Shown in pieces: positions 1,471 to 58,814 of a DNA stretch of 64,000 nt. Below the pieces are notes generated by a model. That model was not told where the DNA came from and did not search any database. It saw only the letters and a program-made list of their open reading frames with translations. Every line of letters starts with the position of its first letter. Within the stretch, counting starts at the first letter, position 1. The DNA comes from Antedon mediterranea (taxonomy: Eukaryota > Animalia > Echinodermata). A program made the translations under genes and the position numbers. Location of the stretch: the NCBI RefSeq assembly GCF_964355755.1, contig NC_092674.1, positions 28,272,001-28,336,000 of the forward strand. Reading direction: 5' to 3'.

Positions 1471-2081
1471 TTAAGGCCAATCACATACTTTTAAGTCGTC
1501 TTTCCATACAGTTCCTGGTCCACATATGAAATGATACGCATTGCCGTACGAACACATATACCACATGTTAGGGTCAGCAGGATCCGCAAACATACCATCT
1601 CCACGTCCCGTACACGAAAACTCTACTATAGTATTAACGGTCTCTTCAACAGACATCTGTCGATTCTCACAATCCACCAAATGCTCATGGTCGCAGACAG
1701 TTTTCTGGGCATGCCATTTGGTACCCTTCGGGCATGTGCGTACCCGTCGGTGGCCCTGCACATGACACAAAACAAACTTGGCACAATCAAAGGGATGTGG
1801 AAAATATCCGAAACGCTTTCCTTCGCAAAATGTATCGATGACACGTTTTTCCTCTGCCTTTTTCTCTTCATCTTCATTTACTGGTACGCTTATGATGTCA
1901 CATTTTGCTATGCTTGGCCAATCACAGCGCCGTATATTCTCGTTCCAATGAAGGCCATTGGGGCATCTTCGTTTGTGGTAGCCGTAATATTTACATTGGA
2001 TAAATTGTGAGCAATGCAACGGGTGGCCGAACATAAAACCGTAACGTCGGTTTTTACACAGTTTCAGTAAGTCAACATCAG
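1471..2081 (-). CDS. Terminal exon of gene A: three chitin-binding type-2 (peritrophin-A/CBM14) domains
   Basis: Three Cys-patterned repeats: [54 protein letters not shown] and [28 protein letters not shown]. Acceptor cttccccag|CT is phase 1. An in-frame TAA lies just upstream and there is no signal peptide, so this is an internal or terminal exon, not a separate gene. Confidence 0.88.
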
Positions 2082-14000: not shown

Positions 14001-17000
14001 TTCTGAAATGAAGAAAAAACAAAACATTGTAAATATAACAAGATTAGAAAATCTTAAGGCTGTGCAAACTTAGTTTTATTTATTTACTTCTTTTTTATAC
14101 AAGCCCGTAACCACAAGGGGTTTGAAGGTTTCAATGAAACTTTTTTTCTTAAAGTGTCCTTTTTAAACAAGAGAACAGCAGAAGTAAATCAGTAACTGAC
14201 TTACCTGTCTCACAGAATGTTCCAGAAAATCCAGAAACACAACGGCAGAAAAATGCATTAGCTCTGTCCTCACAAACACCACCATTTTGACAGACTACAT
14301 TCTGGGTGGTGCATTCATCGATATTGACATCACATACAGCGCCAAGGAAACCCGGAGGACATGTACAAGTGAAAGCACCATTCGTGTTTAAGCACGTTCC
14401 ATTATTCTGACAGGGGGAGTCGTCGCACTCATTTTTATCTTGCTCGCAGCGTGGTCCTGTGTACCCTGGTGTACAGTAGCACGAGAAGCTCTATTAAAAA
14501 AAGATTTAATAACAGCAATTTAAAAACTGTCATAATATTTAATTAAATAATTTAGGCATTCTTAAGCCCTTTCTACACTATCAAACTTTATGGGACAAAA
14601 AAATTGTAGATGGAGACAACGATGTCATATCACTACCATATTTGGGTACATCAAAATTGTTTGTGAAACTAGTTTACTAGTAGACAGAGCTTTACATTGT
14701 TAAGGGAAGAGGGACATCAATGTTGTGATAGGTATGCAAATGATATATTAGAGGCACTACTTTAGCAATAAAAATTGGTTATTTATCATCTGTGCATCAT
14801 AGTAAAATAAAATACTATATTTAATGTACTAATATACATTAGTTCCTCCAGTAAGTAACTTACGTTAACTTCATCAATACAAGTAGCTCCATTAGTACAA
14901 TTATGTGTAATGCAATCATTGATATTAACAGCACAGTTTGTTCCTGTAAAACCGGATGCACATTGGCACGTGAAGGAGTTGACAGCATCGATACAGCGTC
15001 CACCATTGAGACATGCACCTATGAAAACAAGAGGTTATTGACAATGGTCTACTGAATGGTTTCCATCATACACATATTCATATGCTACAAATCTAAGGTT
15101 TTTTCATTTCATTTCAATCTTTATTTCGTTAAAAAGTAAAATATGAGTAAAATAAACAGACAATTAAAAATTACTAATGAAAATGGAACTAAAAAAACTT
15201 TAAAATTTGTAATTTATTATTTTATTTATTTATTATTTCTTTATACTGGGTAGAATCTTCAGTCAAAGACTGTTCTCCCAAAGGGCCTAGTTCTGGTTCA
15301 GTGGCTATGTGTGACAGCGGCTGTGTGCGTACTAGTACACCGGGCTAACCCCCTAATTGTCTCGAAAGATGTACTATGTTCTTTAAAGTGCACCTGAGCT
15401 AGATGTGTACACTAGACCTACAGTTTATAGTCCTTATCCGAGAAAATTCATTCTACCACTAGAACCATGAAGAAATATTTATATAAAAGGTAAACTTAAT
15501 GGGGATTTTTTTTAAATCTTTGAAAACTATATAATGTCCTTGATTCCATACCTGGTCCACAATCATTGATGTTTATCTGACAATTAATCCCTACGAATCC
15601 TACCGCACACACGCAGTAGTATGTGTTTGTTCCATCTAGACAACTGCCACCATTCATGCAAGGATTACTGAGACACTCATTGACGTTGAGGTCGCAAGTA
15701 GAACCATAAATTCCGGGAGAGCACGAACACTGGAATCCATCAACCGTGTCGGAACAAGTAGCGTTGTTTTTACACGGAGATAACACCAAACAAATGTCAA
15801 TATCTGAAATTATTAATATAAAATATCGTAAAAATTACCTAACAAAAACCTTTTAAATACAACAGCACCTTTATTAAAGAGATAGCTTTGAATTGTCTCC
15901 TTAGTAGGGGTGTCCCTTAAGTATGGTTTTATCCATAGTGTTAAAATGTACATTTTCCTTTATTCATTTCAGAAGTAAGCGTCCCCTTAATAGGGGTGTC
16001 CCTGAATAGGGATATCACAAAGAAGAGATCTACGTATAAAAAAAAAAGTTTCAGTAACCTGAAAAAGCATGATGGTGTCGTATAATTTAACTATTCTACG
16101 GCCAAAACTCACCTGCGCATTCCGAAGATGATGCCGCACCTTTAGCAGAGGTTGTAAATCCTTGTTGACAAGAATCGCATGACCTCTGACCTTCGTTGGA
16201 TTGGTATTCACCAAGAGGGCAGAGTTCGCACGGTTCATAACCAGTTCGAGAGTAGTGTCCAGCTTGACAAGCAACTAAAATTAGAATAAATATTGTTTAC
16301 TCAATGATGGCATTATGGAAACTCGTCCTGTAAATGAGAGGTTGCTGGTTTAAATCTTAAATCAAGAAAGTCTTAAAACTTAAAACTTGGGCTGGTATCA
16401 ATCTTTCTGCTTACATCAATATAATTATGAAAAGTACAGTAAATAGTTCTCTAAATTTTAAGGAATGGACTTCCCCATCTAGGATTTAAGGAACAAATCC
16501 GGCAAAACAAGTTGCTTAGGCTAATTTTAAAAATGACATTAGCAAGATAAATTAACTTACAAAAGGTTAAGATGATTTTTTTTTCTGATAATCTGACCCC
16601 TGACATTTTGGACCAACAGAAAGTCAGGTTTAGGAGAGTTAATTGCAACATGTAATAGGGAGGTTTAGCAATCTTACGAATACGATAACGAAAACGTCAC
16701 GCACACGTATTCGTTTTTCGTTAGTCAGCAAAAATTTGTTTCACATGGCAACAAAATATTGAGGGCGCCGTCCAAAATATGACTGCGGTAAGTTTGAGCG
16801 AAGCGCATGTACGTGTTGCTTGGCTGCCTAGGCCTAGCGTAACATCAAAGCGAGTGAGGACTTTAAAAACTGCTATTTATCAAAATTGACCTGGCATTTT
16901 AGTAAATTACTTTAGTAAATTACTTTCAATAAAAGTATAATTATATTATAATCATGAATCATTCCTGATTCAAATGCAAAATGTGCAAAATAGATCAAAA

Positions 17001-20000
17001 ACTAAACTCGCTTTGTAGTTACGAATATGACTGGTGATATTCGTCAACACGAATACGCTTTACGAATATGAAATAGGGATCAGCTTAAAAGTTTCACAAA
17101 TGTGTGACTTATCCGTTTTCGTTATCGTATTCGTAAGGTTGCGAAACCTCCCTATTAACTGGAAGAAAATTGCTGAAATGCCTAACAAGTTTGAATGATA
17201 GTTGCTCACCTGTGCAGTCTAATGCAGACGTAGTTCCAACATTCCACGTTGTCAAACCATCTGGACATCCTGCACACATCGTAAATCTTGGATTTGGTTG
17301 GAAAAAGCCTTTCATGCAGGCAACACAGGGTTTTAACCCACTTGAAGACGACGTTCCTGGTTCACAAGGTTCTGGTAATCAACAACAGAAAAAAATAAAA
17401 AAATAAAATAGAGAAATGCGATTTTGATCGAGAAGTAAATGTAAAGTTTCAATGGCAATAGCTTTGATATCAATCAAGAAAACATCTTTTAGGTATTAGG
17501 AATTTAGGTAGAAGATTTAAAAAATGAGTGATTGCTGTTATTAAATAATAACACAATTGTTTTTTTAATGGAAATACAAATTTATGTTAAAAATAATTGA
17601 AACAATTATTATAAAAAAATTTAATTATAAATATTTTTTTTTTCTTTTCCAAAATCAATAAAAAAAAATTCAAAAAAATAAAGAGACTAATAAATTTAGT
17701 TACAATTAGAAACAAAGTTTTTTTTAAGTCGTAATATTGACAATACTGTTTCTCTTACCTCTGCATTCAGACAATTGTTTAGTTTTAGTTGTCAGTGTAT
17801 ATCTATTGTTTGGGCACACTTTGCATGTAGTCTGTGCTTCTATATCTTGATACATGTCAATTGGACAATCTTCGCAAATTTCAGATCCAACATCAAAAAA
17901 TGTTCCAACGGGACAGCTTACTGTAAAACAAATAGTCAAAAAGTAAAGAATTATATATCATACAAATATAAATAATATTTATTTTAGGCACATGTGGCCA
18001 ACGATTTAAGTCAGGTCTCGAACAGGCATGGTCCAACCACCCTCTAAAATTTGCGCCGTATTCGAGATTTGATGTCATTTTCAAGAGGGGCTTATAGGCA
18101 TGCCTAGCCTCGACTCCTTATCCAGAAAATGCTGAGCTCCGGAAATAAGTAAGTAAACAAGGATTACCAATAGTAAATTCATTTCTATCAGATACTGTAT
18201 GGGCTATTTGTGAACCAGTTCACTGGGGCAACTCCCTGCTCGTCTCTCTTAAAGTGCACATAATTGTGTACACTGGACCTACGGTTTATAGTCCTTATCC
18301 GAGAAGACTTGTTCCACCACCAGAACTAGGAGCGAGACGGCCAAAAACCCATGCCAATATTGTTGGATCCTCCTGGTGGTCCCTTTTATCTTTAAAAATA
18401 TGTTTTACTCCTTGTTTGTTTATGAGGTGAATAAAGAGAAATTAACAGCGCCTCTGCCTTAAACGCTCAGCTAAACTAGTTCGACATACAAAGTGTGATG
18501 TACGTGCCCAAATATGGTAGTGATATGACAACATTGTGTCCATATATGGGCAAATTTTGTTGTCACATGGGTAATGGTTGGTTATAAATAAATCAATTAA
18601 CACTAACCACAACTCAGATTCCTTAGAACCTGTCCAACATCGCAATCAATTGTAATCTCTGACATCACAATATCCTGACTGGTTTCTGGAGCCAGAATGT
18701 CACCATCCAGTGGGATTGATAGGTTACCTGTTGTCACTAACTTTTGTATTGTGTTCACATATTCTTGTAGGGCACCGGTGACATCTATTTCAGTTTCATC
18801 CGGCATGTTGCCCGACATCTTTTGTTGCTGTGGACAAAATAGTTCATCATTTACATACAGTACTGACTACATATCATATACCAAGCCCACACATTTTACA
18901 CGGGTGTGAAAAACGCGTGACTCGCGTGTAATTAGGTACTAACAATACTGTCCATATTCACTCATGCATTACTGCATTGAGTAATTCAACTGCAGCGAAC
19001 TGTATTTATAATTTGTTGATGTTTTGTTCATATATATTATTATCATCAAACAGACAATAACTGGAATTACAGTACAGGATAACAGCATTTTATTTAACAA
19101 AATATAGGCCTATTTGAAATAAAAAATCGATTTATTTATCATAGTGCAATCATGGAGGTAAAAACCTCCATGAATCATGATGCAATCTGTGATTGAAAAT
19201 ACTAGGCCTAGTTAGTAGGCCTACTACCGGGATCGGAGTACAGTACTACTATTCTAGGCTTTCAGGGTTTGTTTATATATATTTTTAAGTCATATTTATT
19301 AAGTATTTGAGAAAACTCATTAAAAAAAACAAGGTAGAAAAGACCCAACAATATCTTTCAAAACACGATCGTTGCTGGTGGCCGAATGACGTACTTTCTG
19401 TACGCACCACGTTGTAGAGTTCATCCATTGAGTACACACAGTAATTGCTAGGCCAGATAATAACATAAAGGTTTTACCATTCCCCGTCGGGGAGGAAAAC
19501 ATTTATATAGTATTACAACGCCAGTATTGACATGCATGTATTTAGCGCGGTAACTAATGTACACCCCTGTTACGGACTGGACCATTAATCGCTCCACGAA
19601 ACCACGTTGGAGCGATTCTCCTCCGCACACAGCCAGAGCGAGAGAGAAGCGAGGTCGAATAAATACAAGTTTTTACCATTTCCCGTCCAGGGGAAATCAG
19701 TTCTCTTATAATTACAGCCCCGATACCGTGCGCATATGTTTACGTTGATATTATTTAATTGCACACCTCATTTTGGACTGTACCATTTTCGGAACCTTGT
19801 TTTGTTTTCATTATAAACATGGGCTGATGTCAGACAAATATCTGCTTTAAACGTCAATTTAGCAACTTATTAAGTCGTTTCATAAGCAGAGAATGTATAA
19901 AGCAAGTATACAATGCAGACATGTTAGATAGAAATATACTAAAAGACATGTAATAAACGTGTTAGAAGAACGTAATAATTGTACTTTCTACACCGAGCGG

Positions 20001-23000
20001 CGGAAAACCCATTCACAGTCACAGTTATTTGAGCGAATACTGTACTTGGCCTAAAACACTAGCGCTGTATTTTAATTTAAATATTTGGCTTACGGTTACG
20101 AAAATACAGGGAAACATCATTTTATAATTTTACTATTATTAGGCTATTTATTGACCTATTAAAGATCGCTAAATATGTTTTTTTTTGTGGGGGGCTTAGG
20201 TACAGTAGCTCTCTATTCTAGCCTCCCTGTTGTACACTTCTCACTGTACGCCTCACATTATATAAAATAATACGACGTGAACTCTAAACAAAACCCCGAT
20301 GAAAAACAATTTACATGAATTCTATAAACCTTCTTATTTATTGTTTGCCTAAACAATAGAGAAAAAATAAACTTTGTTACATACAGTAACGGGCGGGTTC
20401 AGATTACCTAAATATGATGGTAGAGGCCTAAACAATAGAAACAAAACAAACTGATACCCACGTGTGTGTTGTCACGGGCGTCGTACCGGGAGTTCCATAT
20501 TTTACCAGTAAAAAGCTACAAAGTGATGACGTCATGGTCCACACGGCAAATACAGGCACGCGGCAATTACACATATTTTACACGCGCGACAAACGCGGGT
20601 TATGGTACATGATTTGTAGTCAGTACTGTAAATAGTATTAAACGTTTTAAACCAATTCACCACTAAAGTGTATGATGGGCTACCCTTAAAGTGAAATCTT
20701 AAATTGACTTAAGTGAAAAAAAATAATGCATCCCGGCAAAGTTATAGCTACAATTACCTTTATACCGTATGTAAACATCAACAACAAACTAAATTACGAT
20801 AAAAAAAAAACAACATTTCAAGTTTTACCTGGGCTGCACTGCCACTGACCGTTGCCGTGGCATTGACGGTAATCACGTACTGGACAACTTGACGCCTTCT
20901 TCGTTTTGATGACCCGACAGCGCCAGCACTGTCAGCTCCACAGTACACATTCACGTTTTCCACTTTACACGTGTCGGGATCGTTACAGAGACCAGGAAAG
21001 ATTGCATTCAAATCTTGAAACTGACTGATCAAGTTATTTTGGATTTCTAGTTTTCCTTCTGGTGATGCGCAATGGTCAGCATAGTACTGGACACTCAGAT
21101 CAACATTAGCATTTGATGGAACCATTACTATTTAAAAAATTAATAAAAGTAAATTAGCCTGCTTGAAAAAATGAGAAATATTCATTGTAGAGTGGGGTTT
21201 TTTTTTTTTACTTTTCCTGTGATTTGACAAAAATAATATAAAAATAATAATTTAAAATACAGAAATACATTAGGTCTATTTAGAAGCATTCAATTTACCA
21301 CTGCTTAGGATCTAGTTAATGTAAATTAATTGTGTGCATATGAGGGTATTTGGCTATGTGGGGATTCTAGGCCACATCATAACTGACGACGCAATATACG
21401 TCGCAAAGCAAAAGCTCCTTATTTTAATGGTAGTAATCTTTTATATATTATATTTATATAATATTTTTTTTTAATTTATAATATATTTCATACATAATTT
21501 AACTTTACAAACATTATTAAGAATAAATTAAATAAAAAATAAAATTAAATAAATTAAACCTACCAGAACAATCTGGCCATGGAATTACAAACTCCATTGT
21601 GGAATCTCTTGTAAATGATGGAAACAAAACCCATGCTGGCGTAGCACCAGTGGTAGAGCAGTAGTACAATTCCTCTGGCGTGCGTGAAAAGTCAAAATCC
21701 TTCTGACAGGAAGCGGTGCAGAATTGACCTCCAAGCCAAGTCTCACAAGCGAGAGCTCCATTCAGAGGAGAGGGATGGAATGGGCATGAATATTCTACAA
21801 AAAATGGTCATTTAATAACTATTAACAGTTCATAAATATAATTACTGTAATTTTTTTAATTATACTTTTAATGAAATATATTTGTACTATTTTTCATATT
21901 TTTATATTGGAAAAAATAAATTAAAATTTTGAATCTGTAACAGTATGAATAGACGAATACGAATAGAACTTTATTGCAATCAAACGAAAGATTGAAGTTT
22001 AACAAAAGCGTTTCACTCAGAAAAATAAAATGCAATATAAAAATATAAAAGACATTTAGAAAGGTAGAACATACAATCAAAATATTAAAACCAAATTACA
22101 ATTAAATATCACTTATTATAAAAACAATAAATATATATTCAAAATGTTAAAAACAAGTTTAACTGAAAACATCAGAATATTGATATAGGCCAGCATTATA
22201 AAAATGTAAAAGTTTAAAAAATTTTTAAAAATTTAAAAAATGTTAAAAACTTCACAAATTTTCAAAAATATTTACACACAATGGTACGGAAGGTCGCGAA
22301 AACATAACACTAAATGTTTACCATTTTTGGAATAGTCCGTGATTAATAATGAAACGTTTTTGAACGGTTAGTTTTAACTCTGGGATACAGAACTCACGGA
22401 GTCTCTCTAAGATTATAAGCAGTAGAAGGAGCCTCCGGTAACAAATGATTCAATCTGTGACTGGGGTCTTTGATTTTAACGAAAAAATCCTTGCATAGTC
22501 GAACACGGCGGTCTTCTAAGGTAGAAAAACCAAGGAAGCTGCGGGCATCGGAATAAGTAGCATGCAGAAAAATACATTTAAAGGCCCTTCTCTGAATTTG
22601 TTCAAGTTGTTGACTCTGTTGCTTCGTAATATTTGATCCTCAAACTGGGGCCGCATATTCTAATATTGGTCTAATGATACTAGTATAAAATTGGACAAGT
22701 GCGGGGGCATCCAGGCCTGCCCTCCGCACCTGTTTGAGAAAGTACATTCTAGAATTACATTTACTAATCATTTTGTCAATATGAGGTTGCCATGACAAAT
22801 TATGAGAAATAATTACACCAAGGAGTTTAAATTCGTCAACACGTTCCAGATTACAATCTCCAACATGAAGTGGCTCAAAAGCAGTCTTTGACCATTTACA
22901 ACTAATTCTCATCTCTTTCGTTTTCTTAATATTAAGGGACATATTGTTATCCTTAGCCCACTGGACAGTTTCGTCAAGAGTGGTTTGGAGTACAGTTGCC

Positions 23001-26000
23001 CCATCTTTGCCGACGCGTTCATGGATGGAGGTGTCGTCCATGTATTTCATGCACGGCACCCCATCCAGAAGATCGTCGACAAAGATGATAAACAACATGG
23101 GCCCCAACCAGGATCCCTGTGGGATACCGCCCTTAACGACTGTCCAAGGGGACAATTCATCGCCTAGTTTAACACGTTGTTTTCTATCACATAGAAAAGC
23201 ATAGATCCAAGAGATTAGATGGTCTTTGACCCCTAAATTATAGAATGTGATGTGATGTGATGTGATGTGTCCATATATGGACATGATGTCATATCACTAC
23301 CATATTTGGGCACACAAACTACTTTGATAGTGTAGACAGAGCTTTAAGCTTTATCTACACTATCAAACTTTATGTGACAAAAAATGTGTGGACATGATGA
23401 TGTCATATCTCTACCATATTTGGGCACATCACACTAGTTTGATAGTGTAGACAGACGCCCATATTCTTAAACCGGACTTTAGTTGTAGTTCGAAGTTCGA
23501 CTTGAAAAAGTTGTAGTTCGAACTATTACTTCAAATTCGATTAAAAAACAAAGTAGTCAAAGTTTGCAGTTCGACTTAATGAAGTCGAGCTTTTAGTCGA
23601 GTTGCACACGTCTGGGTAACAAAGGCTATAAATTGGCCAATGACAAGAGAGTATTTGAGGAGCAGACAAAATTTTGCGCATTGATATCACTTTCCATTTT
23701 CTTACAACACTTTTTACGCATCAGGACTATATACATGAAAAGCAATTTTAATCGTTAATTATTAGAACAAGATCAGTATTAATTTAACAATGAGGTACTT
23801 TTGATTAACAACAAACAAAATATTCAAAATATATTCAGGAACCATGGCGGTACGGTAACTTTTATATTTTCTAGGCCCCCAAACAAAGTATGATCGCGAC
23901 GAACCACGCACTTCATAGCGTGACAAGAAAGCGCTAGGCCCCCTAAACATTCCATCGCGTGGTGAATTTCCGCATCTGCCATTGTCGCTATGGCGTGACG
24001 TAGTTCAAGTTGGACTTGCGCGAAGAAAATAATGTAATTTGTATACGGTTGTAAATAAAGATTATTTTCATTATTATAACTTATACCAATGTATACTTAA
24101 TTTTAAACTAATATAAAAATAGATATTTCATTCTTCAATATCTGGCCAATATAACAACTCAATGACTGTTACATTTTTTCATAAACATCGTTTAAAAACC
24201 ATTTAGTCAACCATTTAGCCTGCCCCCTCTAGGACTAAAAAAATCGATCAAAATTCGTCTTGATTTAGTCGAGGTTGGCCTGAATTAGTCGGCGATTTAG
24301 TTGAAGTTCGGTTTATGAATTAAAATGACGTCATTTTTAAAGTTTTAGCTCCAATTACGACTAAAGTCTGGTTTAAGAATACGGGCGAGAGTTTTACAGT
24401 AGTTAAAAATGTTTACTTACGTCTAACTTGTACAAAGAAAGTACAGACTTCTAAGTTGCCAGCCTCATCTCTGCCCTCAATGCGTATTTCTTGTTTCTCT
24501 CCCCAGTAGAACTCGCTACCTGACTGCCTAAGGTGAGTGAGTATAACATCTTTGTTGGAATTATCAATAAACACTGGGTCTTCCCAGAATACATTTGTTT
24601 TAATTTCATTACTGCTTTCGGTTATATCTTCGGGACAGGATACTAAGGTTGGTTTTTCCACATCTGGACAAAAAAAGACAATAGAAATAGAATGAAGTAT
24701 TTTATGACTGTGAAACTGCAAAATTGATATAATGGCACTTACAACATACATTACAATACAGATCCCCGATAGGATTTTTTACCTATATGTATATTATATG
24801 ATTTTATATTTCTGTCTATACCAAACCCTTTCTATTTCCTTAAATAATAAAACTGAATTATTTACATGGCTGCAGTTTATCAATTGTAAAAAACACATTA
24901 ATTTAAAACCAAGCTTGCCACAAAAGAAATGCCAATTCTTCGGTCTTCGTACTAAATTCTTAAATTGTAAAAGGGTTAAATACTAACCTTTGACCGTTAC
25001 TATAAAAGTACAAGGCTGCGACTCCAAGTTGTTGCCGTCCGTTGCGGTGTATCGAACGGTCGTTTCACCGATTTCAAACGCATCCCCGGGATTGTGACTT
25101 GTGGTGATGACAGGTTGAAGACCGGAGTTATCAGTTGCTAATGGGGGTACCCACATTACCACTGCTGAGCTTAAGCCAGGGTCATTGCCCTGATCTATTT
25201 TGTCTGGACAGTTTGTCAGCTCTGGAGCAGTGGCATCTATTGAGAAAGAGAGAAACAAATCTTTGTTTTATCTTGGAGAGTTGAATGAGTGAAGAAAACA
25301 GTTGTCTAAGGTTAAGGACCATATTGATGGCAATGTTGTTATTTCTTTTAATGATCACTTAACTTACCTTCACATTGTGGTGGCTGATCCTGTCCAGACC
25401 ACGATTCATCAGCCCGACAGATAGTATTGTCAATGCCATTCAGGGTATATCCTGCTCGGCATCGATAGGTGCAAATAAACTGGTATTTCTGTGGTGAACT
25501 CTGACATTCTGCAGGACTTACTTCCACATTAGCAATTACAGGAAGAGGTTGGCATTCCCTTGCTGTAAAGATAAAATTGATAATAATAATATTTTTTTTT
25601 TCTATTTTTCTCCTTTACCATGCCACCTAGATTGTTTTAGATCTAATTTAGTAGGACAGGAGGCGCCGGAGTCCGGGATGACAGAGACTGGTGCTGACCG
25701 GGGTACAATTAGACCGATCTCTGGTTAGCGATGAAGGCGCATCCCTTTACTTCGGTTTGGCTTTTTTTTTGTAATGGTTGGAATTCCCTTTTTTCGTATT
25801 AGTTTATGTACAGCACTTAGAGGTTTCACAACATAGGCGCTTTATAAATCAAGGATATTATTATTATTATTATGTACAGTTTTCAAAAAGGATTTGAGAC
25901 TACATAAAAAGATCTTGAAATGTGCGATAATGGGAAAGAGTTAAGTTGTGATGTTAAGCTGTTGATTTTATGTACACGAAGAGAACATCTGCATAAAAAA

Positions 26001-29000
26001 TAAGGGATAATTGATTTGTTGATTATGGGAAGTGTTTAATAATAATAGTCGGTGCTTTTGCATGAAGTAACCGTCCATGACTATGATCATATAATTGCTA
26101 ATAGATACTGGCACACAGCAAAAATAAATTGTGTTTATTATTATTGTTCTTATTACTGGTTTAACATTAGGCTGTACAGTCATACATGATATAACATTGT
26201 ATGTTGTATATTCTCAAATGCTTGAAAATCTTGGAAGGCAACGCACCTACACACTGTGGTTCAACCCCTGACCATGTTCCAGTGTTATCTTGTGTTTGAG
26301 TACACGTTCGTGTACTATCGCCCTCATTTAGTTCATATCCTTCGCTGCAGACCGTTTGACAGGTTGTGCCAATCTCAAGATCTGTTGATGAGCAGTCACG
26401 CACTCCATTTGCAGGAATGGGTAGGGCGTCACATGTTATTTCTGTCAAAAACAGGGTGTTAAAGAAAATGTTTTAAATAGTTTCAAAGAGTAAATGAGGA
26501 AATATTCTACAAAGAAGTTGGAACCATTTCCAGTTTATAAAGATCATTGCATGAAATCTTGTTTGCGGTCGTAATTTCGACAATTTGTAAAACTCAATTT
26601 AACTCACTGGTACATTGCAAGGGGTTGGCGGACCAAAGGCCGTCTATGAGGCATGTAACTTCTGTAGCTGTTCCAGTAGTTTGTCTATATCCTTCTTGAC
26701 AAAGAAATGAGCATTTTGTATCAAGAACGTTATCGCAGTCTGGTGGGAAAAGATCTACTCCTGTGCGGCTCACAAGTTTTTCACATCTGATTGCTGGAGA
26801 GAGAAAAAATAATATATTTATTGGTTATCCGCACTTGGCGGATAACCCCTTGTTATTGTCAGGATCTTTTTTTTTTTTTTTTTTTTTTTTGGTTATCCGC
26901 AACTTTAAGTTGCGGATAACCCTTGTGATTGTAAATATCTTTTTTTTCATCTTCTTTGTTATTAGTTATCCGCTTAGTAGCGGATAACTCCTTGTAATCG
27001 TCCTGTTTCATCATCTTTTTTTTTTTTGGTTATCCGCAACTTTAAGTTGCGGATAACCCTTGTGATTGTAAATATCTTTTTTTTCATCTTCTTCTTTGTT
27101 ATTCTTCTTTCTTTCCCGGATTTTTGTGCGTCGCATATCTCTCATCCTTGTCAACATAAGATTGTATAACTTTGTCAAAAGATGGACCTGTAGCTGTAGA
27201 TGTGCAAGAAACTTCGTTATATGACGTTAGAGTTGCGCAGCGTAAGTTACGCGTGATTTTATGAATTTCAATGATTGGTCATAGATTATAAACCAAAAGT
27301 AATTTTATATTGAAACTTGGTGAAAATTTAAGTTAAATTAAGGGCAAACTTTCTATGGATTAAAAATGACATGTTTCACAAGAAGTTACGCGCGCACGCG
27401 CATTTAAAAATTAAAAATGCGCAAAATTAATTTCTAATCAACTTTCTATGCTGATCATGACATTTTGACCATGTCAAAAATTCCCACGCGCGCGAAAAAA
27501 ATTACGCGTAAAGTGCGCACGGAGCATGAAAATCATGTGTTTTTCTCTTGAATTATAATTTTACAGTCTTTCCTAGTTATTTTAAAAAAGATTGACATCA
27601 TTTCAAATTAAAATGACGTCATACGAACACGTTGATTTACACCATTTGCGTGCGTTTTAGTTGCAAAAGTGACAACATATTGTCAAAATTGAGCCTATTT
27701 TTAATCTATTATAGCTCCTCAGGATCATCCACGACCCCCAATTTTTTTAATTTAATATGTAAGCAGATATGTTGTAGATATGAATTCATGCCGAACCTTT
27801 ACCACTCGAATGTTATGACGTCATCGTATGGCCACACGAATGTAAAATATAGGATTTTTTACTCTTTCGTTATTGCTCATCACATTCAACAAACCGCATC
27901 TCGCTTATACGTATTCCATTTCCCCCGAAATGGTAATATTGTCTACGTCAATCAACTATCTTTCGCATGAATTAAAAATATTTTAATTTTTATGACGTCA
28001 TCATGCCTAAAAACGTAAATAACTTGGGTCACTTATTTTTATCTTTACAGTAAATATCAATCTGTTATAGCTCGTCAGATTAAAAAGTGATAATCATGAT
28101 TAAAACGTTTTCTGGAAGCTATTGGATTGTAGATATGAATTGATGTGAATATTTTGCCAATCAGATGTTGTGACGTCATCATATGGCCAGTTGAATTAAA
28201 AAAGTCATATTTTCATCTCTTGCGTCAAAGTTCATTGCGTTTAAACGAGAGCGCATCTCACTTTTACGTTCCCAAATTTCTTCAAATTTTTTTTAATGTA
28301 ATTATTTAGATAATTATCTTCGAAAGTGGTTATCTTTATATGTCAATTTGATGATGTCATCGTGTTAATAATTGGATTTAAAAGATGGGTCTCGTAATTC
28401 CGTCTATGCTACACTGTATATAACATATATACAGTTTATTCTGTAAAATACTGTAATATGGTGTATGTTACATAATAGGTACAATTCAGCACTGTAAACA
28501 TTTTTATTTCATGTCAAAGGATGGCATAATAATTGTCGAGGTTCATATAGTTTAAAGTACGTGCATGTTGCGTATGCGCGGATAACCCGAACTCGTCAAA
28601 GTGACGAGTTCAAATCTAGTTTTTTTCTGTATTATACTTCTTTCCTTCTGTCATTTTTGTGCGTCGCGTTTCTCTAAAACGTGTAAACAGAACATATCGT
28701 AACTTTGTCAACATATCGACATTTACGTGAACTTGTGCACCTCCTATTTTTGAATGACGTCAGAGTTGCGCAACGTGACTTACGCGCGATTTTATGAATT
28801 TCAATGATTGATCATAGACTAAAAACGAAACATAATTTTGTTTTGACACTTTGTGAAAATTTAAGTCACATCAAGCGCAAACTTCCTATGGATTAAAAAT
28901 AGCATGTTTCACAAAAAGTTACGCACGCACGCGCGTTTAAAATTTTAGAGTGCGAAAAATCAACTTCTAATCAACTTTCTATGCGTTTCATGTCATTTTG

Positions 29001-39794: not shown

Positions 39795-42700
39795 TTATCC
39801 CAAGTCAACACCGTCAGTTCCACAATAAACATTCACGTTTTCCACTTTACACGTGTCGGGATCGTTACAGAGACCAGGAAAGATTGCATTCAAGTCTTGA
39901 AACTGACTGATGAAGTTATTCTGGATTTCTAGTTTCCCTTCTGGTGATGCGCAACGGTCAGCATAATACTGGACACTCAGATCAACATTACCATTCGTTG
40001 GAACCGTTACTTTATAAAACAAAAGTACTAAATTAGTCTGATTCCACCATTTTCTATAAGCTTTAGTCACGGGGTGTATTTGGATGTTTATGAATATCAT
40101 AAACATGTATTAAATTTTGTTTTCATCTCCTTCGAATTTAAAGTTTGAATCCAATGCTTGTGTAACTTCATGATATAACAGTAACCATGATGATGTTAGC
40201 ATCTCAAGTAATCTTGATCTCAATAATTCACTATGATATAAAAAAAAGGATAACTTACCAGAACAATCTGGCCATGGAATTACAAACTCCATTGTGGAAT
40301 CTCTTGTAAATGATGGAAACAAAACCCATTCTGGCGTAGCACCAGTGGTAGAGCAGTAGTACAATTCCTCTGGCGTACGTGAAAAGTCAAAATCCTTCTG
40401 ACAGGAAACAGTGCAGAATTGACCTCCAAGCCAAGTCTCACAAGCGAGAGCTCCATTCAAAGGAGAGGGGTAAAAGGGGCATGAATGTTCTACAGAAAAA
40501 AGGTGTAATTTTATTTACGAACTACGGTTTGTAGGACAGAATAGGTAGAGGATGTAAACATGTTTACTTACGTCTAACCTGTACAAAGAAAGTACAGACT
40601 TCTAAGTTACCAGCCTCATCTCTACCCTCAATGCGTATTTCTTGTTTCTCACCCCTGTAGAACTCGCTCCCAGACTGCCTATGATGAGTGAGTATCACGT
40701 CTTTGTTGGAATTATCAATAAACACTGGGTCTTCCCAGGTTACACTTGTTTTATACGTATTACTGCTTTCAGTTATATCTTCAGGACAGGATACTAAGGT
40801 TGGTTTTTCCACATCTGCCATGTAAAAACAATTTATACTTTGTTTACCTAAAACTCTGAAACTCCAGAATATATTGAAACGATAATTTTGACAAATATAC
40901 AGATCCTGTAAGTAACAATATTACGTATATTGCCTTTCTTCATACTGAAATCGTAAAAAACTGACATTCTAACCTTTGACCGTTACTATAAAAGTACAGG
41001 GCTCAGACTCCACGTTATTGCCATCCGTTGCGGTGTATCGGACGGTTGTTTCACCGATTTCAAACGTATCCCCAGGATTGTTACTTGCATTGATGACAGG
41101 TTGAAGGCCGGAGTTATCAGTCGCTAATGGGGGTACCCACAATACCACTGCTGAGCTTAAGCCAGGGTCATTGCCCTGATCTATATTGTCTGGACAGTTC
41201 GTCAGCTCTGGAGCAGTTGCATCTATCAAAATAACAATAGATCATCAAACGATAAATACAATTAAAGCTATAATTAAAACCACAATTTGATAATCCAGAG
41301 TCAAGATTTGAACTCATTACTTTGGAATTGGTAACCAGGCAACATGGACGACTAATTATTAAGAAAAGCATATCTAACTAAGTACAAGTAAATCGTAAAA
41401 CATCAGGGTCAATACAGTACCTTCAGTTCCACAGTAAACATTAGCATTTTCCACTTTACATCTATTTGGATCGTTACAAATACCAGGAAAGAATCTATTC
41501 AAGTCTTGAAACTGACTGATCAAGTTATTCTGGATTTCTAGTTTCCCTTCTGGAGATGCACAGCGGTCAGCATAGTACTGCACACTCAGATCAACACTAG
41601 CATTTGATGGTACTATTACTATTAAAAACAAAACCAGTAAAATTAGTCTGATTTAATTTAGGTTTTTATTATTTTTGTGCGGATTTCATTTCAAAAGTAT
41701 ATATAATGGCATTCAAAAAAATATTTTTGCATATACAGTTATTATATTTCGTAACTTTTAAAACGGTTATATTGCTGTGTTAGCGCTAGTTAGAATTCGT
41801 TATGCATGCGTAATTAATACATGACGTAATACATCCGGGCATAAATAGAGAAGAAACTACACCCATCGTTCAGTGCGAGTACAGGTAATGCGTCATGGTG
41901 TGTAAGAAGCCAGAGATGTAAATAAAGGTGGAATGAATTAGCTGTACTTGACAGAGTAATTGACCGACATCAATTCTAGATTTAATTTTGTGGTTTCTGC
42001 TTTTCTAATAAGAAGTGGTTTCATCTGTATGACTCGTATTACATAATAAACACCAATGATATTTAGTAGCCCCAAGGCAACCCAACAACAGGACGCTGAG
42101 CTCGCCTTGCCAAGATAGGAACTTGTAACAGTCCTTTGATCTTATGTATAGGTGCGACAAATACCAACAGTACTGTACTATGTACATAATTATTCTCCGT
42201 GACAGTGTCTTTAAACCAAACATTTCAAGAAGACAATTAGCCAATCAAAAGGTATTAGGAGGCGTGGAACTGGTCATGTCGCAGCCAAAGAAACCCTTTA
42301 ATCTCCTCCGGAGATCAGTATCTTTGTTGTTAGATTGCTTTGGTAGTTCTATGATCAATGATACTCTTATCTATAATGCAATTAACTCTCGTCGGGATTC
42401 TCTAAACCTTCAAGCTGATCTGGACCGACTTGGTCTGTGGAGCCAACCAACTCGCATGCCTCTCAATGTTATGACGAATGTCCTGCATGTATACGTTGGT
42501 GTAACAGACAGTTGTCTAATTATCTTTTGGCTGGCTCTCCAATTCGTCCGGTGACATCTTTTAAATACCTTGGTGTTACTTTTAACTCAAAATTGACCTG
42601 GGATGACCATTTCCATGTCATTGTTTCCAAAGCTAAACGTGTGTTGGGCTTTGTTTGAAGTGTGGCTGGACAGTGCATTTTTGTCTTTGTACAAAGGTCT

Positions 42701-45700
42701 TGATTTGCCTGGTCTGGAGTATGCGCAACGTAACCTGCTTGGTTTCTATGGACGATGTCTTTGTAAGATCGGCTTGAGAGGGTCCATAGGAGAACAACTC
42801 GTCTTGCTCTTGCAGCATCGTGAACAGATGTGCTATGAGGAGAGGTTAAATTTGCTTTCAGTTTCATCTTTGTCCGTTAGAAGAGATACATTTCTTATTC
42901 TATTTTGTTTCAAAGTTCAGGTGGGTTTCTGGAATGCAGCACAGTTCATGACTGTATTTTAATAAATACCTGTCACAATGATCGCCTGTGCTTACGTCAT
43001 CAAGCATCAAGAACACAGGCTTTTTTTATTCGATAGCCATCAGATTACCCCGTGTCTGGGACCAGCTTCCCAGACCACTGACAGATGCTGCAGTCCAGAA
43101 AGCCCATTAGCCTTCATTAGAAAAGTTCACATTCATTTTGATTCGCTTTACCTGTATTTTGTGTCTTTTATGTGTAAACTGACTTTGGGGTTGGGTCAAC
43201 TGGTTCAGCTACAGTGATTAATTTGACTTATGTTGACCCTGGTCTCCCCAATTTCAGTTTTTTGGTTATATATAATTATACTGAAATAGACCGAATAAAT
43301 AATGAAATGAAAATGTTCTATGAATCTGTTATTTGAAATAGCAATCATCAAGAATTGCAAACAAAATTCTGAGAAAATAAAAAAAAAGAAAAAGTCCTTC
43401 TGAAAAAAAAATCATTGTGATTTATTTATTTATTTAATGTCTTTAGGCAATGTGGCCAAGGATTACCAATAGTGAATTAATCACTGTCCTATCAGATAGG
43501 TGGTAATCCCCCTGATACAGGGGCTATTGTGTGAACCAGTTCACCGGGGTAACCCCCTACTCTTTTTCGAATAATGAACTGGGTTCTTTAAAGTACACAC
43601 AGGTTATAACTGTGTACACTGGACCTACGGTTTATAGTCCTTATCCGAGAAAACTTGTTCCACCACCAGAACTAGGAGCGAGTCGGCCTCGAACCCTTGC
43701 CGATGTTGTTGTTGGCTCTTTAGGTACGGTAAACGGCGCCCCTGCCTTAACCGCTCGGCCATATGACATGTAAATGTCATTCGTTACCCAGACCCATACT
43801 TACACAGGACAACTCAATCTCAATAGAACAATTCACGTTAGTATATTAAAAACCATTGTTAGTACGACTAAGCCAAGACAAACTTACCAGAACAATTTGG
43901 CCATGGCATTATAAACTCCAACGTGGGATCCCTTGTGAATGATGGAAACATCGACCATTCTGTCCCATCACAATAGTACACTTCCTCTGGCGTGCTTGAA
44001 AAGTCAAAATTCTTCTGACAGGAAACAGTACAGAATTGAATTCCAAGCCAAGTCTCACAAGCGAGGGCTCCATTCAAAGGAGAGGGGTAGAATTGACATG
44101 GGTAAACTACACGAGAAACAAAATGGTACTTTAGTACTGTTTACTTGCAGATCAGAGCGACTCAAACACAGAAAGCACTTTAACATTACTAAATACGGAA
44201 CATATTAATTCATTAACTTTTCCATCCTTATGCGTGTTTTATTACGGTAATTGTTGAGATTTATCTTGTTCTTGGTTTTTTTTTTTATTATTCAAACATA
44301 TTATCAAATACTTGGTTGGCTTCTATGTAAAAGGTATATACATTAACCAAACATACGTTTTTGGCATGGGATATCGGCTGATGGATCTCCGATGTAGCCC
44401 TCGACACAAGTAGGCCTACAGTCAGTTTTACTTGTGCTTCCTTCAGATGCAGTGGTTGAATGCATTGGACATAGTGTGCAGTCTTGATTGCTATAGGACC
44501 CTTTGTATGTTCCAATAGCACATTCTAATTATGATTGAAAATAAGTACATAGATAAATAAATAAAACAAAATATGATAAAGTAGCCTCAGTGAGAAATAA
44601 AAATTACATTAATAATTATTACATTTAAGTGAACAATAATAACGATGATATTCATGTATACATATTTGTTTTGTGACGACCACGCTTGGTTCCCACTACA
44701 GACGCAACACAAGGAAGTAACGCAACGTAAGTCAGTTGACCAATCACAAGCGATGGCTTATTCGAACTGTCGCTTGTCATTGGTCAACACGCTTACATAG
44801 GGAACCAAGCCTAAGTAACTCTTACGTCTTATGTTACCTACGTGTACATTGTCCCTTAGTTCCTTCACCCGTATATCCTTCAGCGCATGCGCACTCTATA
44901 GAGCCACTATTCGTAGCGCAAGCACAAAGTGCGTTGGCATCACAACAGTCCGATCCAGCGTCACATATGGCATTACAAACAGACCCATCGATATTATAGT
45001 CCCACGAGTCCGAATCTTGCACATCTTTAAATTGAAATAGACTGATTAAGTAACATGAAATGTGTCGCATATCATTCCAGTACTGCTGTACGAGTCTGGT
45101 ACCAGTTCATGCAACAAAAAATAATCCCAAACCCGTGTCTCACCTCCTTTCAACCTAGAGGAAAGATCACTTATCTTCCCAGGTTGATCTAACAAGTAGA
45201 CGTTGTCCTCTGAAGCTATTCCAGTCAACTCGACTTGGTTGATTCCTTCACCAAGCCCGATGGAAAATATCGTTATTCCTTTGGCCTTCATCTCGTTAGC
45301 TTTAACTACAGGGTCACCTCCATTCGATTTTCCAGCAGTTAGAAGCATTACAAGTCTAGAACCAAAGATGATTATTCTTGATTTTTGTTTTAGTTTGAGC
45401 ACGACATACAGAAATATAATGCTGACAATGGGGGAAAATGAGAATAAGCATTGGAATTGCTTTTTCCAGAATTCACTCTTCCTTGTTTTCTTTCTCGAAT
45501 AGCCTAATTCTAAATGTAGTTGTTTTAGCTATTAGTGTAAAGGTTCATCTGGATCTCTGTATAGTATTGATAAATTTCATAAAGCTGTGTCGATGAACCA
45601 GCGAAAGCTCGAGTAAAAACATTAAAGTTTCCGATTTTATTCTCATTGGTTTTAGTTCTTTTTTAAGTTAATGATTTTTATTTAAAATGCTTTCAAACAG

Positions 45701-46401
45701 TCTTGGCGTATCGTTTTTCACCAACAGCACATTTTGATAACAATATCATTCAAACTTGATCAAACAAGAGAATATCATTAGGCCTATTTACTTTCAACAT
45801 TTTATATCCTTTTTTTATTTGATTGAATCTTTTTTTTTCTATTTTGTGGGTTTATCCCACATTTATTCTGTCCATTTATACATAAATTACATAGAATTAT
45901 AGTCTTAATCCTGAATTATATTATTTAATTTTATACTAACCTTGGAGCACCAGGTCTGCCATTTGCCAGAATATTATCAGCTCGATTGAGAGCTCCTAAA
46001 GTGTATCTTCCACCTCCAGTGTAAGGCAGATCATCTTCAAGCTGTCCAAGAAGCGTACACTTATTTTTACCAGTAGGTTCAGTGATATGATCTATCCTCG
46101 TATAAATCTGCGTACCCGACGAATACGACACGATCGCGACACGAGCTGTATCCGCTGACACGGTGAATATTGTTGAAATCTGACGAACAAAGTCCACCTC
46201 TAAAGGCCATCTAGAAGCTCCAATACTATCAGAACTATCCAGAAGGAATACAATTTCACTTGGCGCGTTCTGGAATTCTTCGAGATTACCCAGCAGTCTC
46301 AACGCGTTTTCTTCCACTTGATCTTGGCATCGACCAAATGTTATAACAATTGCAAAACAGACGGCCTGGCAGAGGCGGTATTTAGAGCCTAAAGACAGCA
46401 T
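39795..46401 (-). CDS. Gene B: short exon-shuffled paralog of gene A, 10 exons, ~792 aa (SP-vWA*-Cys-rich/GCC-[Sushi-like+X]-HYR-HYR-[Sushi-like+X])
   Basis: Exons 45941-46401, 45144-45355, 44842-45024, 44357-44524, 43888-44106, 41421-41618, 40974-41222, 40572-40814, 40259-40489 and 39795-40009 (TAA). All have GT/AG and compatible phases, sum to 2379 nt, and show no internal stop. AATAAA lies on the minus strand at about 39671-39676. Confidence 0.8.
42340..43312 (+). mobile_element. Degenerate LINE (CR1/L2-like) 3' fragment in an intron of gene B
   Basis: LQADLDRL, FKYLGVTFNSKLTWDDH, LEYA and YEERLNLL occur in shifting frames, followed by a 3' stem-loop and a (GAAAT)n tail. Confidence 0.75.
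43440..43762 (-). mobile_element. tRNA-derived SINE, same family as 2831-3050
   Basis: Reverse complement has TGGCCGAGCGGTTAAGGC, GGTTCGAGGCC and the GATAAGGACTATAAACCGTAGGTCC core. Confidence 0.72.
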
Positions 46402-47409
46402 GTCTTACGCTGGTCAACTTTACTGCATTACTGTCTTTCGTAAGTGATCTATTCTGAATTTCATACCGTAGGCCTACACTTCCTTTCCTAGCAATCGTTT
46501 CCGTTCACCCTGGAAAAGGGGCAAGCTAGGGAATTTGCACAACTTTACCGCACAAACCGCACACATTTTCGGGATTAGCCTACATATACAGTAATCCAAA
46601 TGTACCTGAAATTGATATGGTTACCAATCAGGATTCGCACAAAATTCCAGTATGCATCAGCAAATACAAAACATACGATTCTGAAGAATGGCGATGGAAC
46701 CATAAAAATAAACCGCCTACTATTATAGGTCTATTTTTTTGTTCTTGAGCAGGGGGAAAATACTTGTACAAAGTGTAACTATACGTCTTGTATCTTTTTT
46801 GGGATGAAACACATTGGTCATCTCGGGATATTCCGATTATTTGTTTTTGATTGAATAAATAATAAGAAGAAATGTTTAATCATGTGAAACATGATGACAT
46901 ACGTTATATAACGTCATAATTTTACACTGAAAATGCTATGCCAGATCTGTTTGTGAGAAGCAAATGGCAAGTAGAGAAAAAAAAACACGGAGCAGCATGA
47001 CATTTCTTTTATTATTAACAATATATTTATATACAGTAAATCAAATTGGTTGAAACTAGAAAATAGGTATCTGAAGATTCTGGTGTAACCTTTTGTTACC
47101 TTTATGTTATAGAATGAACTCTATTTTGCCTTTGTCACTTGTTTTCATTTTTTTTTTCATCCTAGGCAATAAAACTAATGTAATTATTTCCTTGTTCCTG
47201 TGTTTAAACAGATAAAATCCACCGGGTCAATGTGAAAAGGGCCATTATCCCTATCCTATCACATATCCTGATCATATACAGCGATATGTGGTTATTATAA
47301 ACGTGGAGTTTACTTATTGTGTGGAAAATGTTGTGAAATTGATAGGACCGAATTATTCCAATGAATGGGTGTGGTGAGTTTTTTTAAAATAGAGACAATT
47401 TTATCCATA

Positions 47410-58500: not shown

Positions 58501-58814
58501 ATTTACATAAATTCTAGGTCCTAGCAAATCCAACGCTTCCCATGCATTGGCTCATCACGTTTTCTTCTCTCTCATCCATCCAGGTCAGTAGAGGAGCCGA
58601 ATGTGTGATGATAAACAAAGAGTTCTTTATAAAACATGCAAGCGAACGGGTTCTCAGGAACATCAGGAGCATATGTAACCCGTATCCTTCTTCAAGAAGA
58701 CTCCAAAAACGTTTAGAACATCACGCTGTGTGGAACGAATTTAAAAACGAAGCTGTTGTCTCAATAATTCAAGACAAACGAAGAATGCGAGAACATACAA
58801 CAATTCATAAATAA
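49584..58814 (+). CDS. CNBD2: Gene C: CNBD2-like cyclic-nucleotide-binding domain protein, 15 coding exons, ~620 aa
   Basis: Exons 49584-49814, 50695-50768, 50981-51101, 51633-51707, 52300-52388, 52700-52773, 53695-53935, 54501-54578, 54876-54936, 55339-55441, 56237-56355, 56632-56823, 57909-58028, 58388-58441 and 58584-58814 sum to 1863 nt. Motifs RVIIRQGHYAENFYFIISG, FGELALLHHSKRTATV and VSRGAECVMINK. The first exon is the least certain, and the symbol is family-level only. Confidence 0.8.
55096..55341 (+). repeat. ~123 bp tandem duplication that includes a splice acceptor of gene C
   Basis: cgcgatgga.tatccgaattgtcgcgtgtc...ttgtttgtttt(g/a)cagggc occurs twice. Confidence 0.85.
57338..57852. 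repeat. ~110 bp tandem repeat, 5 copies, in an intron of gene C
   Basis: actgatctgattggt(c/t)aatagt starts at about 57338, 57448, 57558, 57668 and 57781. Confidence 0.9.

What the first reader, a model, noticed from the sequence alone, without database searches (positions are those of the whole stretch)
39795..46401. Tandem exon-shuffled paralog that mirrors the N-terminal furin fragment of gene A
Seen: gene B exons correspond to gene A exons in the order 1,2,3,4,10',11',8,9,10,11. The three Sushi exons (5-7) are replaced by a diverged extra copy of the exon 10+11 module, and all frames are open. Both exon-11 copies end right after NV(Y)CGxx, one at a new phase-1 donor and one at a TAA. That is just before the SSKRRRR polybasic site in gene A exon 11 (about 20892-20912). 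Known: SVEP1 has a furin-type site at the equivalent position. Inference: B is a stand-alone, constitutively 'pre-cleaved' version of A's N-terminal fragment, so A and B may form a long/short or effector/decoy pair.
Basis: partly seen in the sequence, partly recalled or inferred. Interest (0 to 1): 0.82.

Follow-up and report, generated by a model that had tools for sequence, protein, structure and literature searches.

The report
Half-domain decoy twin of SVEP1-like gene
A feather star carries, beside its large SVEP1-like matrix gene, a spliced short copy that lacks two conserved metal-site residues and twice stops halfway through a predicted furin-cut domain, so it likely acts as a swap-in partner or decoy for the cut long protein, a design that appears to have arisen repeatedly in animals.

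Summary
Gene B (10 exons, 792 aa, no internal stop) equals an NCBI Antedon (crinoid) protein, 792/792; A is the 2,456-aa neighbour. One RNA contig spans all three new B junctions, and a second study repeats one. dN/dS for A vs B is 0.21 (0.15-0.29). Other individuals carry both genes. B is therefore neither pseudogene nor mis-join.

(1) A's KRRRR lies in the predicted beta2-beta3 loop of a ferredoxin/SEA-like domain, whose cut halves normally stay together; B has two N-halves and no C-half. (2) B's vWA has lost two MIDAS residues (T132R, D161A). Of 35 related vWA domains, only a starfish protein that also has two half-domains shares this pair. (3) Half-domain-only proteins recur in coral, brachiopod, oyster, amphioxus and starfish, and trees reject a single origin.

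Introns are far more diverged than dS 0.19 predicts, which suggests an older duplicate homogenised exon by exon.

Best reading (0.4): B is a secreted, metal-blind, two-handed substitute N-subunit that docks on A's cleaved C-fragment. Binding and cleavage are untested. Verdict: new variant of a known kind; interest 0.6.

The parts
45941..46401 (-). B exon 1: signal peptide (judged by eye) and vWA N-part; DSSDS at 46239-46225; T132R codon at 46008-46006
45144..45355 (-). B exon 2: vWA C-part; D161A codon at 45336-45334
44842..45024 (-). B exon 3: EGF-like
   Evidence: joint 44842>44524 in X5
44357..44524 (-). B exon 4: Ephrin_rec_like/GCC repeat; 12 nt longer than A exon 4, frame kept
43888..44106 (-). 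B exon 5 = diverged A10 copy (CCP-like), in-frame 12-nt deletion
41421..41618 (-). B exon 6 = diverged A11 5' copy: first half SEA-like unit (predicted b1-a1-b2), ends at a phase-1 donor
40974..41222 (-). B exon 7: HYR (A8)
40572..40814 (-). B exon 8: HYR (A9)
40259..40489 (-). B exon 9: CCP-like (A10)
39795..40009 (-). B exon 10: second half SEA-like unit, then TDGVDLG and TAA
37860..39794 (-). Probable long 3' UTR of B; AATAAA at 39680 and at 37941, 37923, 37864
   Evidence: X5 contigs, motif scan; RNA end not shown
46402..46640 (-). 5' UTR/promoter stretch of about 240 nt alignable with A's upstream region
33373..36129 (-). A exons 1-4 (vWA with intact MIDAS, EGF, GCC)
   Evidence: A1>A2 splice in X5
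25368..26793 (-). A exons 5-7, three Sushi/CCP, absent from B
20829..25236 (-). A exons 8-11 (HYR, HYR, CCP-like, SEA-like N-half plus furin loop and beta3)
20892..20912 (-). SSKRRRR polybasic site (A residues 843-849) in a low-confidence loop between predicted beta2 and beta3
18608..18827 (-). A exon 12: rest of the SEA-like C-half (helix and beta4), absent from B
1471..36129 (-). Whole gene A (P0007, XP_071951453.1, 2,456 aa): continues with 3 GCC, EGFs, pentraxin, VWC, HYR array and CBM14 repeats

Best explanation
B is a spliced, constrained tandem paralogue of the crinoid SVEP1-like gene A that encodes a likely secreted 792-aa protein lacking two vWA metal-site residues and carrying two N-halves of A's predicted furin-cut SEA-like domain, and it likely works as a substitute N-subunit or decoy that docks on the C-fragment of cleaved A. 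Shown: gene structure, splicing of the new junctions, constraint, and the MIDAS changes. Predicted: the fold of A's domain and the position of KRRRR in its beta2-beta3 loop. Inferred: furin cuts A and the halves stay non-covalently joined; B's half-domains take up A's beta3-helix-beta4 half when A's own N-part is absent or pulled off; two halves per B could bridge two C-fragments; the swapped complex cannot make A's metal-dependent vWA contacts and lacks three CCPs, so B would tune or antagonise A's adhesion. Origin (inferred): an older tandem duplication, loss of exons 5-7 and 12 onward, an extra exon 10-11 copy, then exon-limited gene conversion with A that spared B's specific changes.
For: Splicing in two studies. 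dN/dS 0.21, bootstrap 0.15-0.29, over 635 codons; within-B modules 0.28 (0.17-0.47). 0 of 2000 neutral simulations keep the frame free of stops. AlphaFold model of A 694-997: pLDDT 88.8, strand-helix-strand, disordered basic loop, strand-helix-strand. Best single-domain matches include the MUC16, TMPRSS-type and Gpr126 SEA domains and TROP-2 at Z 7.4-7.9; the whole cassette matches thyroglobulin 1212-1514 at Z 13.1, rmsd 7.5, 248 aligned. Cut SEA halves stay associated, and the cut is in the beta2-beta3 loop (PMC6954182 section 11); MUC1 subunits reassociate (PMC5560680, passages). MIDAS D-S-S-T-D is intact in 30 of 35 distinct vWA domains; the R/A pair occurs only in B and in Acanthaster P0023, which also has two half-domains and lies on the same scaffold as a long gene. 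In the 34-row tree, half-only modules sit next to full ones in crinoid, starfish, amphioxus and oyster. B's halves keep all four cysteines.
Against: Small proteins made only of a signal-like start, the CCP-like unit and the half-domain (P0280, P0272, P0214; 151-163 aa) and a mostly half-only clade (11 of 14 rows) suggest the unit may fold or act without a C-half. SEA Z-scores are under 8 and tie with unrelated ferredoxin folds, and Pfam SEA does not hit the domain. The four-sequence pattern count is 2 vs 2, so the shared MIDAS pair rests on two sites. P0023 may be a fused gene model: its last third groups with another gene, P0170. Some half-only records may be truncated predictions. B is mildly relaxed: 24 B-derived vs 9 A-derived amino-acid changes, 14 unresolved. 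Patiria and P0190 long-type proteins also alter MIDAS (D>N).
Confidence: 0.4

Rival explanations
1. The CCP-like plus half-domain unit is autonomous (self-folding through its disulfides, or pairing with another half, including B's own second half). B is then an independent matrix protein or polymer that needs no A.
For: Half-only proteins are widespread and some contain nothing else. Doubled halves recur in Lingula P0182, Oculina P0174, Branchiostoma P0216 and Acanthaster P0023. An ADAM-like amphioxus protein ends in the unit in 4 records. The ferredoxin fold is pseudo-symmetric (recalled).
Against: In most family members the half is followed by a basic site and more domain (68 of 109 complete hits by a loose rule, 49 by R-x-K/R-R). 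In the ferredoxin fold beta3 lies between beta1 and beta2 (recalled), so a lone half lacks a central strand. B sits beside A and is kept similar to it.
Confidence: 0.3
2. One reading: B is a ready-made, diffusible equivalent of A's shed N-fragment and does the same positive job without needing furin or force.
For: B stops in the furin loop, with 89-98% identity per matching exon. Mammalian Polydom yields a 115-kD N-fragment (PMC10281526).
Against: MIDAS T and D are lost, three CCPs are lost and the half-domain is doubled, so B cannot be a faithful copy.
Confidence: 0.18
3. B is a transcribed but functionless relic that looks constrained only because conversion from A keeps repairing its exons.
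For: Introns are unalignable while dS is 0.19, which suggests conversion. MIDAS loss and faster amino-acid change in B.
Against: The less-homogenised extra module (dS 0.41-0.43) is open with dN/dS 0.26-0.28. All three exon indels are multiples of three. The new splice sites are used. 3 of the 4 listed X9 coding differences are silent (tiny sample). The same MIDAS pair occurs in a starfish.
Confidence: 0.08
4. B is an assembly artefact (the second haplotype of A joined in tandem).
For: No single contig or long read listed spans A to B.
Against: A and B introns share no sequence. DNA-like runs X1, X6 and X8 have separate contigs on A and on B, including B intron sequence. B-specific spliced contigs exist in two studies.
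Confidence: 0.01

Closest known systems
Vertebrate SVEP1/Polydom
   Same: A has the same N-terminal order (vWA, EGF, GCC, 3 CCP, 2 HYR, CCP-like, basic-site domain, 3 GCC, EGFs, pentraxin). Polydom is cut into 115 + 270 kD (PMC10281526), and a furin site is mentioned in PMC13722417.
   Different: A ends in HYR repeats and CBM14 or SRCR rather than the CCP array that binds Tie1. B is a separate gene with no C-part, no canonical CCPs, a broken MIDAS and two half-domains. My searches found no such paralogue in print.
Cleaved SEA domains (MUC1, Notch S1, GPR126/ADGRG6)
   Same: Ferredoxin-like fold with the cut in the beta2-beta3 loop; the halves stay bound until force separates them (PMC6954182 section 11). 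The model places KRRRR in the same loop.
   Different: Structural likeness is only moderate (Z<8) and there is no Pfam SEA hit. Here a separate gene encodes the N-half alone, twice.
Thyroglobulin 1212-1514; SCUBE spacer; ZPBP2
   Same: The same CCP-like + ferredoxin-like + GCC cassette: thyroglobulin Z 13.1; SCUBE and ZPBP2 TM about 0.7 between predicted models (a lead only). SCUBE1 and SCUBE3 have RXXR in the spacer (PMC10214685, passages).
   Different: These carry the whole domain; none is described as having a half-only paralogue in what I read.
Acanthaster XP_022091513.1 (P0023), Lingula XP_013402495.1 (P0182), Oculina XP_078373500.1 (P0174)
   Same: Two half-domain units separated by other modules. 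P0023 also has the identical MIDAS T>R and D>A.
   Different: Uncharacterised predictions. Trees reject one clade with B. P0182 and P0174 have no vWA, and P0023 continues into a further full cassette.

Membership tests
SVEP1/Polydom (gene A) | N-terminal domain order vWA-EGF-GCC-3CCP-2HYR ... 3GCC-EGFs-pentraxin | tested here: met
SVEP1/Polydom (gene A) | Long C-terminal CCP array (Tie1-binding CCP20) | tested here: not met
   A ends in HYR repeats + CBM14 or SRCR; filed as SVEP1-like
SVEP1/Polydom (gene B) | GCC-EGF-pentraxin C-terminal part and three CCPs | tested here: not met
SVEP1/Polydom | Proteolytic cut into N and C fragments on secretion | not testable with these tools
   motif present in A, none in B; needs proteomics
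SEA domain | Ferredoxin-like beta-alpha-beta-beta-alpha-beta fold | tested here: met
   predicted model, pLDDT 88.8; all top single-domain matches are ferredoxin-like
SEA domain | Closer to SEA than to other ferredoxin-like folds | tested here: inconclusive
   SEA hits Z 7.4-7.9 tie with unrelated folds
SEA domain | Pfam SEA (PF01390) sequence match | tested here: not met
   no hit in 11 homologues at E<=1, A isoform P0122 or the window exons; called SEA-like only
SEA domain | Cleavage site in the beta2-beta3 loop | tested here: met
   KRRRR at model residues 152-156, between strands 131-142 and 161-172; prediction only
SEA domain | Halves stay associated after the cut | not testable with these tools
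   known for MUC1, Notch and GPR126 (PMC6954182); needs biochemistry here
Metal-binding vWA (MIDAS DxSxS..T..D; motif recalled) | All five residues present in B | tested here: not met
   DxSxS kept, T132R, D161A; metal binding itself untested
Pseudogene | Frame lesions, dN/dS near 1, no spliced RNA | tested here: not met

The most novel reading that the evidence does not exclude
SVEP1-family proteins are SEA-type non-covalent heterodimers, and animals have repeatedly (coral, brachiopod, oyster, amphioxus, starfish, crinoid) evolved separate genes encoding only the N-half, which act in trans as interchangeable subunits that re-cap, cross-link or tether the cleaved C-fragment. Crinoid B and its starfish counterpart converged on the same two MIDAS knock-outs to make a ligand-blind cap.
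Probability: 0.3. Interest if true: 0.82.

Novelty: new variant of a known kind. Interest (0 to 1): 0.6.

Why it matters
It gives a structural reading of the SVEP1 furin site (a SEA-like heterodimer and possible force-release point), which bears on a human lymphatic and glaucoma-modifier protein. It also supplies natural half-domain proteins with which subunit exchange at cleaved SEA-like domains can be tested directly. If B docks on A, this is regulation of a matrix protein by a gene-encoded swap-in subunit, apparently evolved many times. The pair is also a clean candidate for exon-limited concerted evolution that spares functional differences.

Tried and rejected
No genome was held, so other Antedon paralogues and A-B adjacency beyond the window were not checked.

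The look-up of sequencing runs listed no holder on record as RNA. I laid 5 of the 9 runs (X1, X5, X6, X8, X9); X5 and X9 proved spliced. One search was swamped by repeats. B exons 1-2 and the joints 1>2, 2>3 and 9>10 were not listed in X5 or X9, so the MIDAS codons were not seen in RNA or checked in other individuals; a hole proves nothing. The 'goes back' joint 41618>40259 is most simply A's exon 10-11 junction mapped onto B's copies (A11's first 54 nt differ from B6 at 4 and from B10 at 5 places), not a back-splice.

Single-sequence AlphaFold of B was useless (pLDDT 35). The complex job (two copies of B 645-792) returned 'no answer', score 0.00, my alignment not used; this is no evidence either way. 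The B-half + A-C-half pair was never folded.

The word search at near length found only B itself, so no B orthologue was seen in Anneissia; this is weak evidence. The PDB sequence search gave only CCP, EGF and GCC proteins among the 60 rows shown. Atlas feature hits were under 0.9. Rfam found nothing in 36-48 kb.

Ancient orthology of B with starfish P0023 is rejected by AU tests (p 2e-6 to 3e-5), but complete conversion would give the same result.

Rows dropped: one search used 107 of 116 modules (near-duplicates removed), one search used 91, and a hand-picked 34. The loose 'basic site' rule miscalls at least one half-only module (P0023 first copy), and the 20 'ends within 25 aa' hits collapse to 14 distinct proteins.

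Literature searches listed no paper on this gene pair or on a SEA-like domain in SVEP1 ('SVEP1'+'SEA domain' gave 1 mucin review, listing only). PMC7545080 had 0 hits for cleavage terms and PMC10381214 had 0 for SVEP/polydom. Earlier-finding look-ups were empty.
Full report
1. Observation. Self-comparison shows that the only coding matches of 39.8-46.5 kb are to gene A exons 1-4, 8, 9 and (twice each) 10 and 11. With corrected boundaries B has 10 exons, 9 GT-AG introns and 792 codons without an internal stop. The first 23 exons of A translate to 1,627 aa without a stop. B is identical over 792 of 792 residues to P0001, which NCBI names SVEP1-like in Antedon, a feather star (name cut off; XP_071951454.1). 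The A model equals the start of P0007, 2,456 aa. The gene models are therefore already annotated; their relation is not described in any paper my searches listed. Pfam gives vWA, EGF (below cut-off), Ephrin_rec_like and two HYR for B, Sushi for A5-7, and nothing for exons 10-12. SSKRRRR is at 20912-20892.

2. B is expressed and real. Of 9 runs listed I laid 5. X5 has a contig joining A exons 1 and 2, so it is RNA. One 601-nt X5 contig joins 44357>44106, 43888>41618 and 41421>41222; X9, from another study and labelled another organism, joins 41421>41222. Six of nine B introns appear as joints; two of them (40974>40814, 40572>40489) may be shared with A reads. X1, X6 and X8 behave as DNA and have distinct contigs on A and on B, introns included. 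X5 contigs continue about 1.9 kb past the stop, towards AATAAA motifs near 37,900, so the 3' end may lie beyond 39,650.

3. Selection and history. Over eight exon pairs (635 codons) dS is 0.19, dN 0.039 and dN/dS 0.21 (0.15-0.29). The extra module is more distant (dS 0.41-0.43; dN/dS 0.26-0.28). Neutral point mutation left the frame open in 0 of 2000 runs. With the Anneissia protein as outgroup, 24 changes are B-derived, 9 A-derived and 14 unresolved: constrained but relaxed. Intron cores do not align. In simulations at distance 0.19, 1 of 600 scored as low as observed, whereas distances of 0.4-0.8 fit. Inference: the duplication is older than dS suggests and exons have been homogenised by gene conversion. 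Very fast intron turnover is the alternative.

4. What exons 10-12 are. An alignment-based AlphaFold model of A 694-997 (47 rows, pLDDT 88.8, pTM 0.78) shows a small beta module, then strand 83-94, helix 100-120, strand 131-142, a low-confidence loop holding KRRRR, strand 161-172, helices and a last strand. Among 48,161 chains the domain matches ferredoxin-like folds, with the SEA domains of MUC16, a transmembrane protease and Gpr126, and TROP-2, at Z 7.4-7.9, tied with unrelated proteins. The whole cassette matches thyroglobulin (Foldseek E 6e-12; Z 13.1). Atlas models point to SCUBE and ZPBP2 (lead only). PMC6954182 (passages and section 11) states that MUC1, Notch2 and GPR126 SEA domains are cut in the beta2-beta3 loop and stay associated until force separates them. 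B's exon-11 copies encode only b1-a1-b2, with all four cysteines. Mammalian Polydom is cut into 115 and 270 kD parts (PMC10281526, passages citing a 2012 paper I did not read). PMC13722417 (passages) mentions a furin site shortly before R997. In lizard and turtle SVEP1 an RVKR precedes the equivalent strand and an RLKR lies further on.

5. The vWA metal site. A has DSSGS, T and D; B has DSSDS, R132 and A161, each a single-base change (motif definition recalled). Among 35 distinct related vWA domains, 30 keep D-S-S-T-D, two have R/A, two have a final N and one is partial. The other R/A protein is Acanthaster P0023, on the same scaffold length as long gene P0036, with two internal half-domains lacking the basic site. 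Against over-reading: only these two sites unite B and P0023, two variable sites show the opposite pattern, trees group B with A and P0023 with P0036 and AU tests reject joining them, and P0023 may be a fused model.

6. The half-domain recurs. A search of 1.84 billion representatives with B's last module gave 237 hits, of which 150 were listed. In 173 proteins examined there were 112 half-domain hits, 109 complete: 68 followed by a basic site (49 by strict R-x-K/R-R), 20 ending within 25 residues (14 distinct proteins) and 21 other. Double-half architectures occur in Lingula P0182, Oculina P0174 and Branchiostoma P0216. A Branchiostoma ADAM-like protein ends in the unit, another has it before a Thr-rich stalk and hydrophobic tail, and three 151-163-aa proteins consist of little else (the organisms of those three were not looked up). 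The half-only label needs at least 7-9 changes on starred branches, and one clade is rejected (p 4e-5). Some records may be truncated predictions; B is the one verified here by RNA.

7. Mechanism. Shown: structure, splicing, constraint, residue changes and recurrence. Predicted: fold and loop position. Inferred: secretion (signal peptide and lack of a membrane anchor judged by eye), cleavage of A, association of the halves, docking of B. I favour B as a two-handed, metal-blind substitute N-subunit for A's C-fragment (0.4), over an autonomous or self-pairing half-domain (0.3), a faithful pre-cleaved effector (0.18), a conversion-maintained relic (0.08) or an artefact (0.01).

8. Verdict. Its interpretation needs the half-domain and MIDAS corrections. 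Truncated tandem paralogues and decoys are a known kind. A gene-encoded half of a cleaved SEA-like domain, doubled and paired with a convergent MIDAS loss, was not in the papers listed. New variant of a known kind; interest 0.6.

Noticed in passing
window 1471-2079 and beyond the left edge: Gene A has two annotated C-termini after residue 2253: three CBM14 chitin-binding repeats (P0007) or a further HYR and SRCR repeats (P0122, 2,807 aa). Starfish and acorn-worm relatives carry VWD/C8/TIL instead, so the C-end of this family is swapped between lineages.
   Followed up: partly
window 27089-32609 (A intron 4): Array of about 1.5-kb diverged units, 75% alike at one period and 88% at two, directly in front of the Sushi exons that B lacks.
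   Followed up: partly
window 22394-23293; 42129-42962; 11634-12510: Broken reverse-transcriptase-like remnants in introns of A and B; only the first hit Pfam RVT_1, the others were judged from translations.
   Followed up: partly
window about 49578-58814 (+) and 60977-62941 (-): Two convergent genes with cNMP-binding domains, apparently another local paralogue pair.
   Followed up: no
window 4928-5995: Tandem array of about 156-bp units built from a dispersed inverted-repeat element that occurs many times in the window.
   Followed up: no
P0036 (Acanthaster) residues 1-1180; P0032/P0124 (Patiria): P0036 has a second signal-like start near 1181, so it looks like two fused gene models. The Patiria long gene has internally repeated HYR pairs and a D>N MIDAS change.
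   Followed up: no
A residues 694-997 model: The CCP-like + ferredoxin-like + GCC cassette matches thyroglobulin 1212-1514 (Z 13.1) and the SCUBE spacer and ZPBP2 models, hinting at a shared ancient cassette with no Pfam model for its middle domain.
   Followed up: partly
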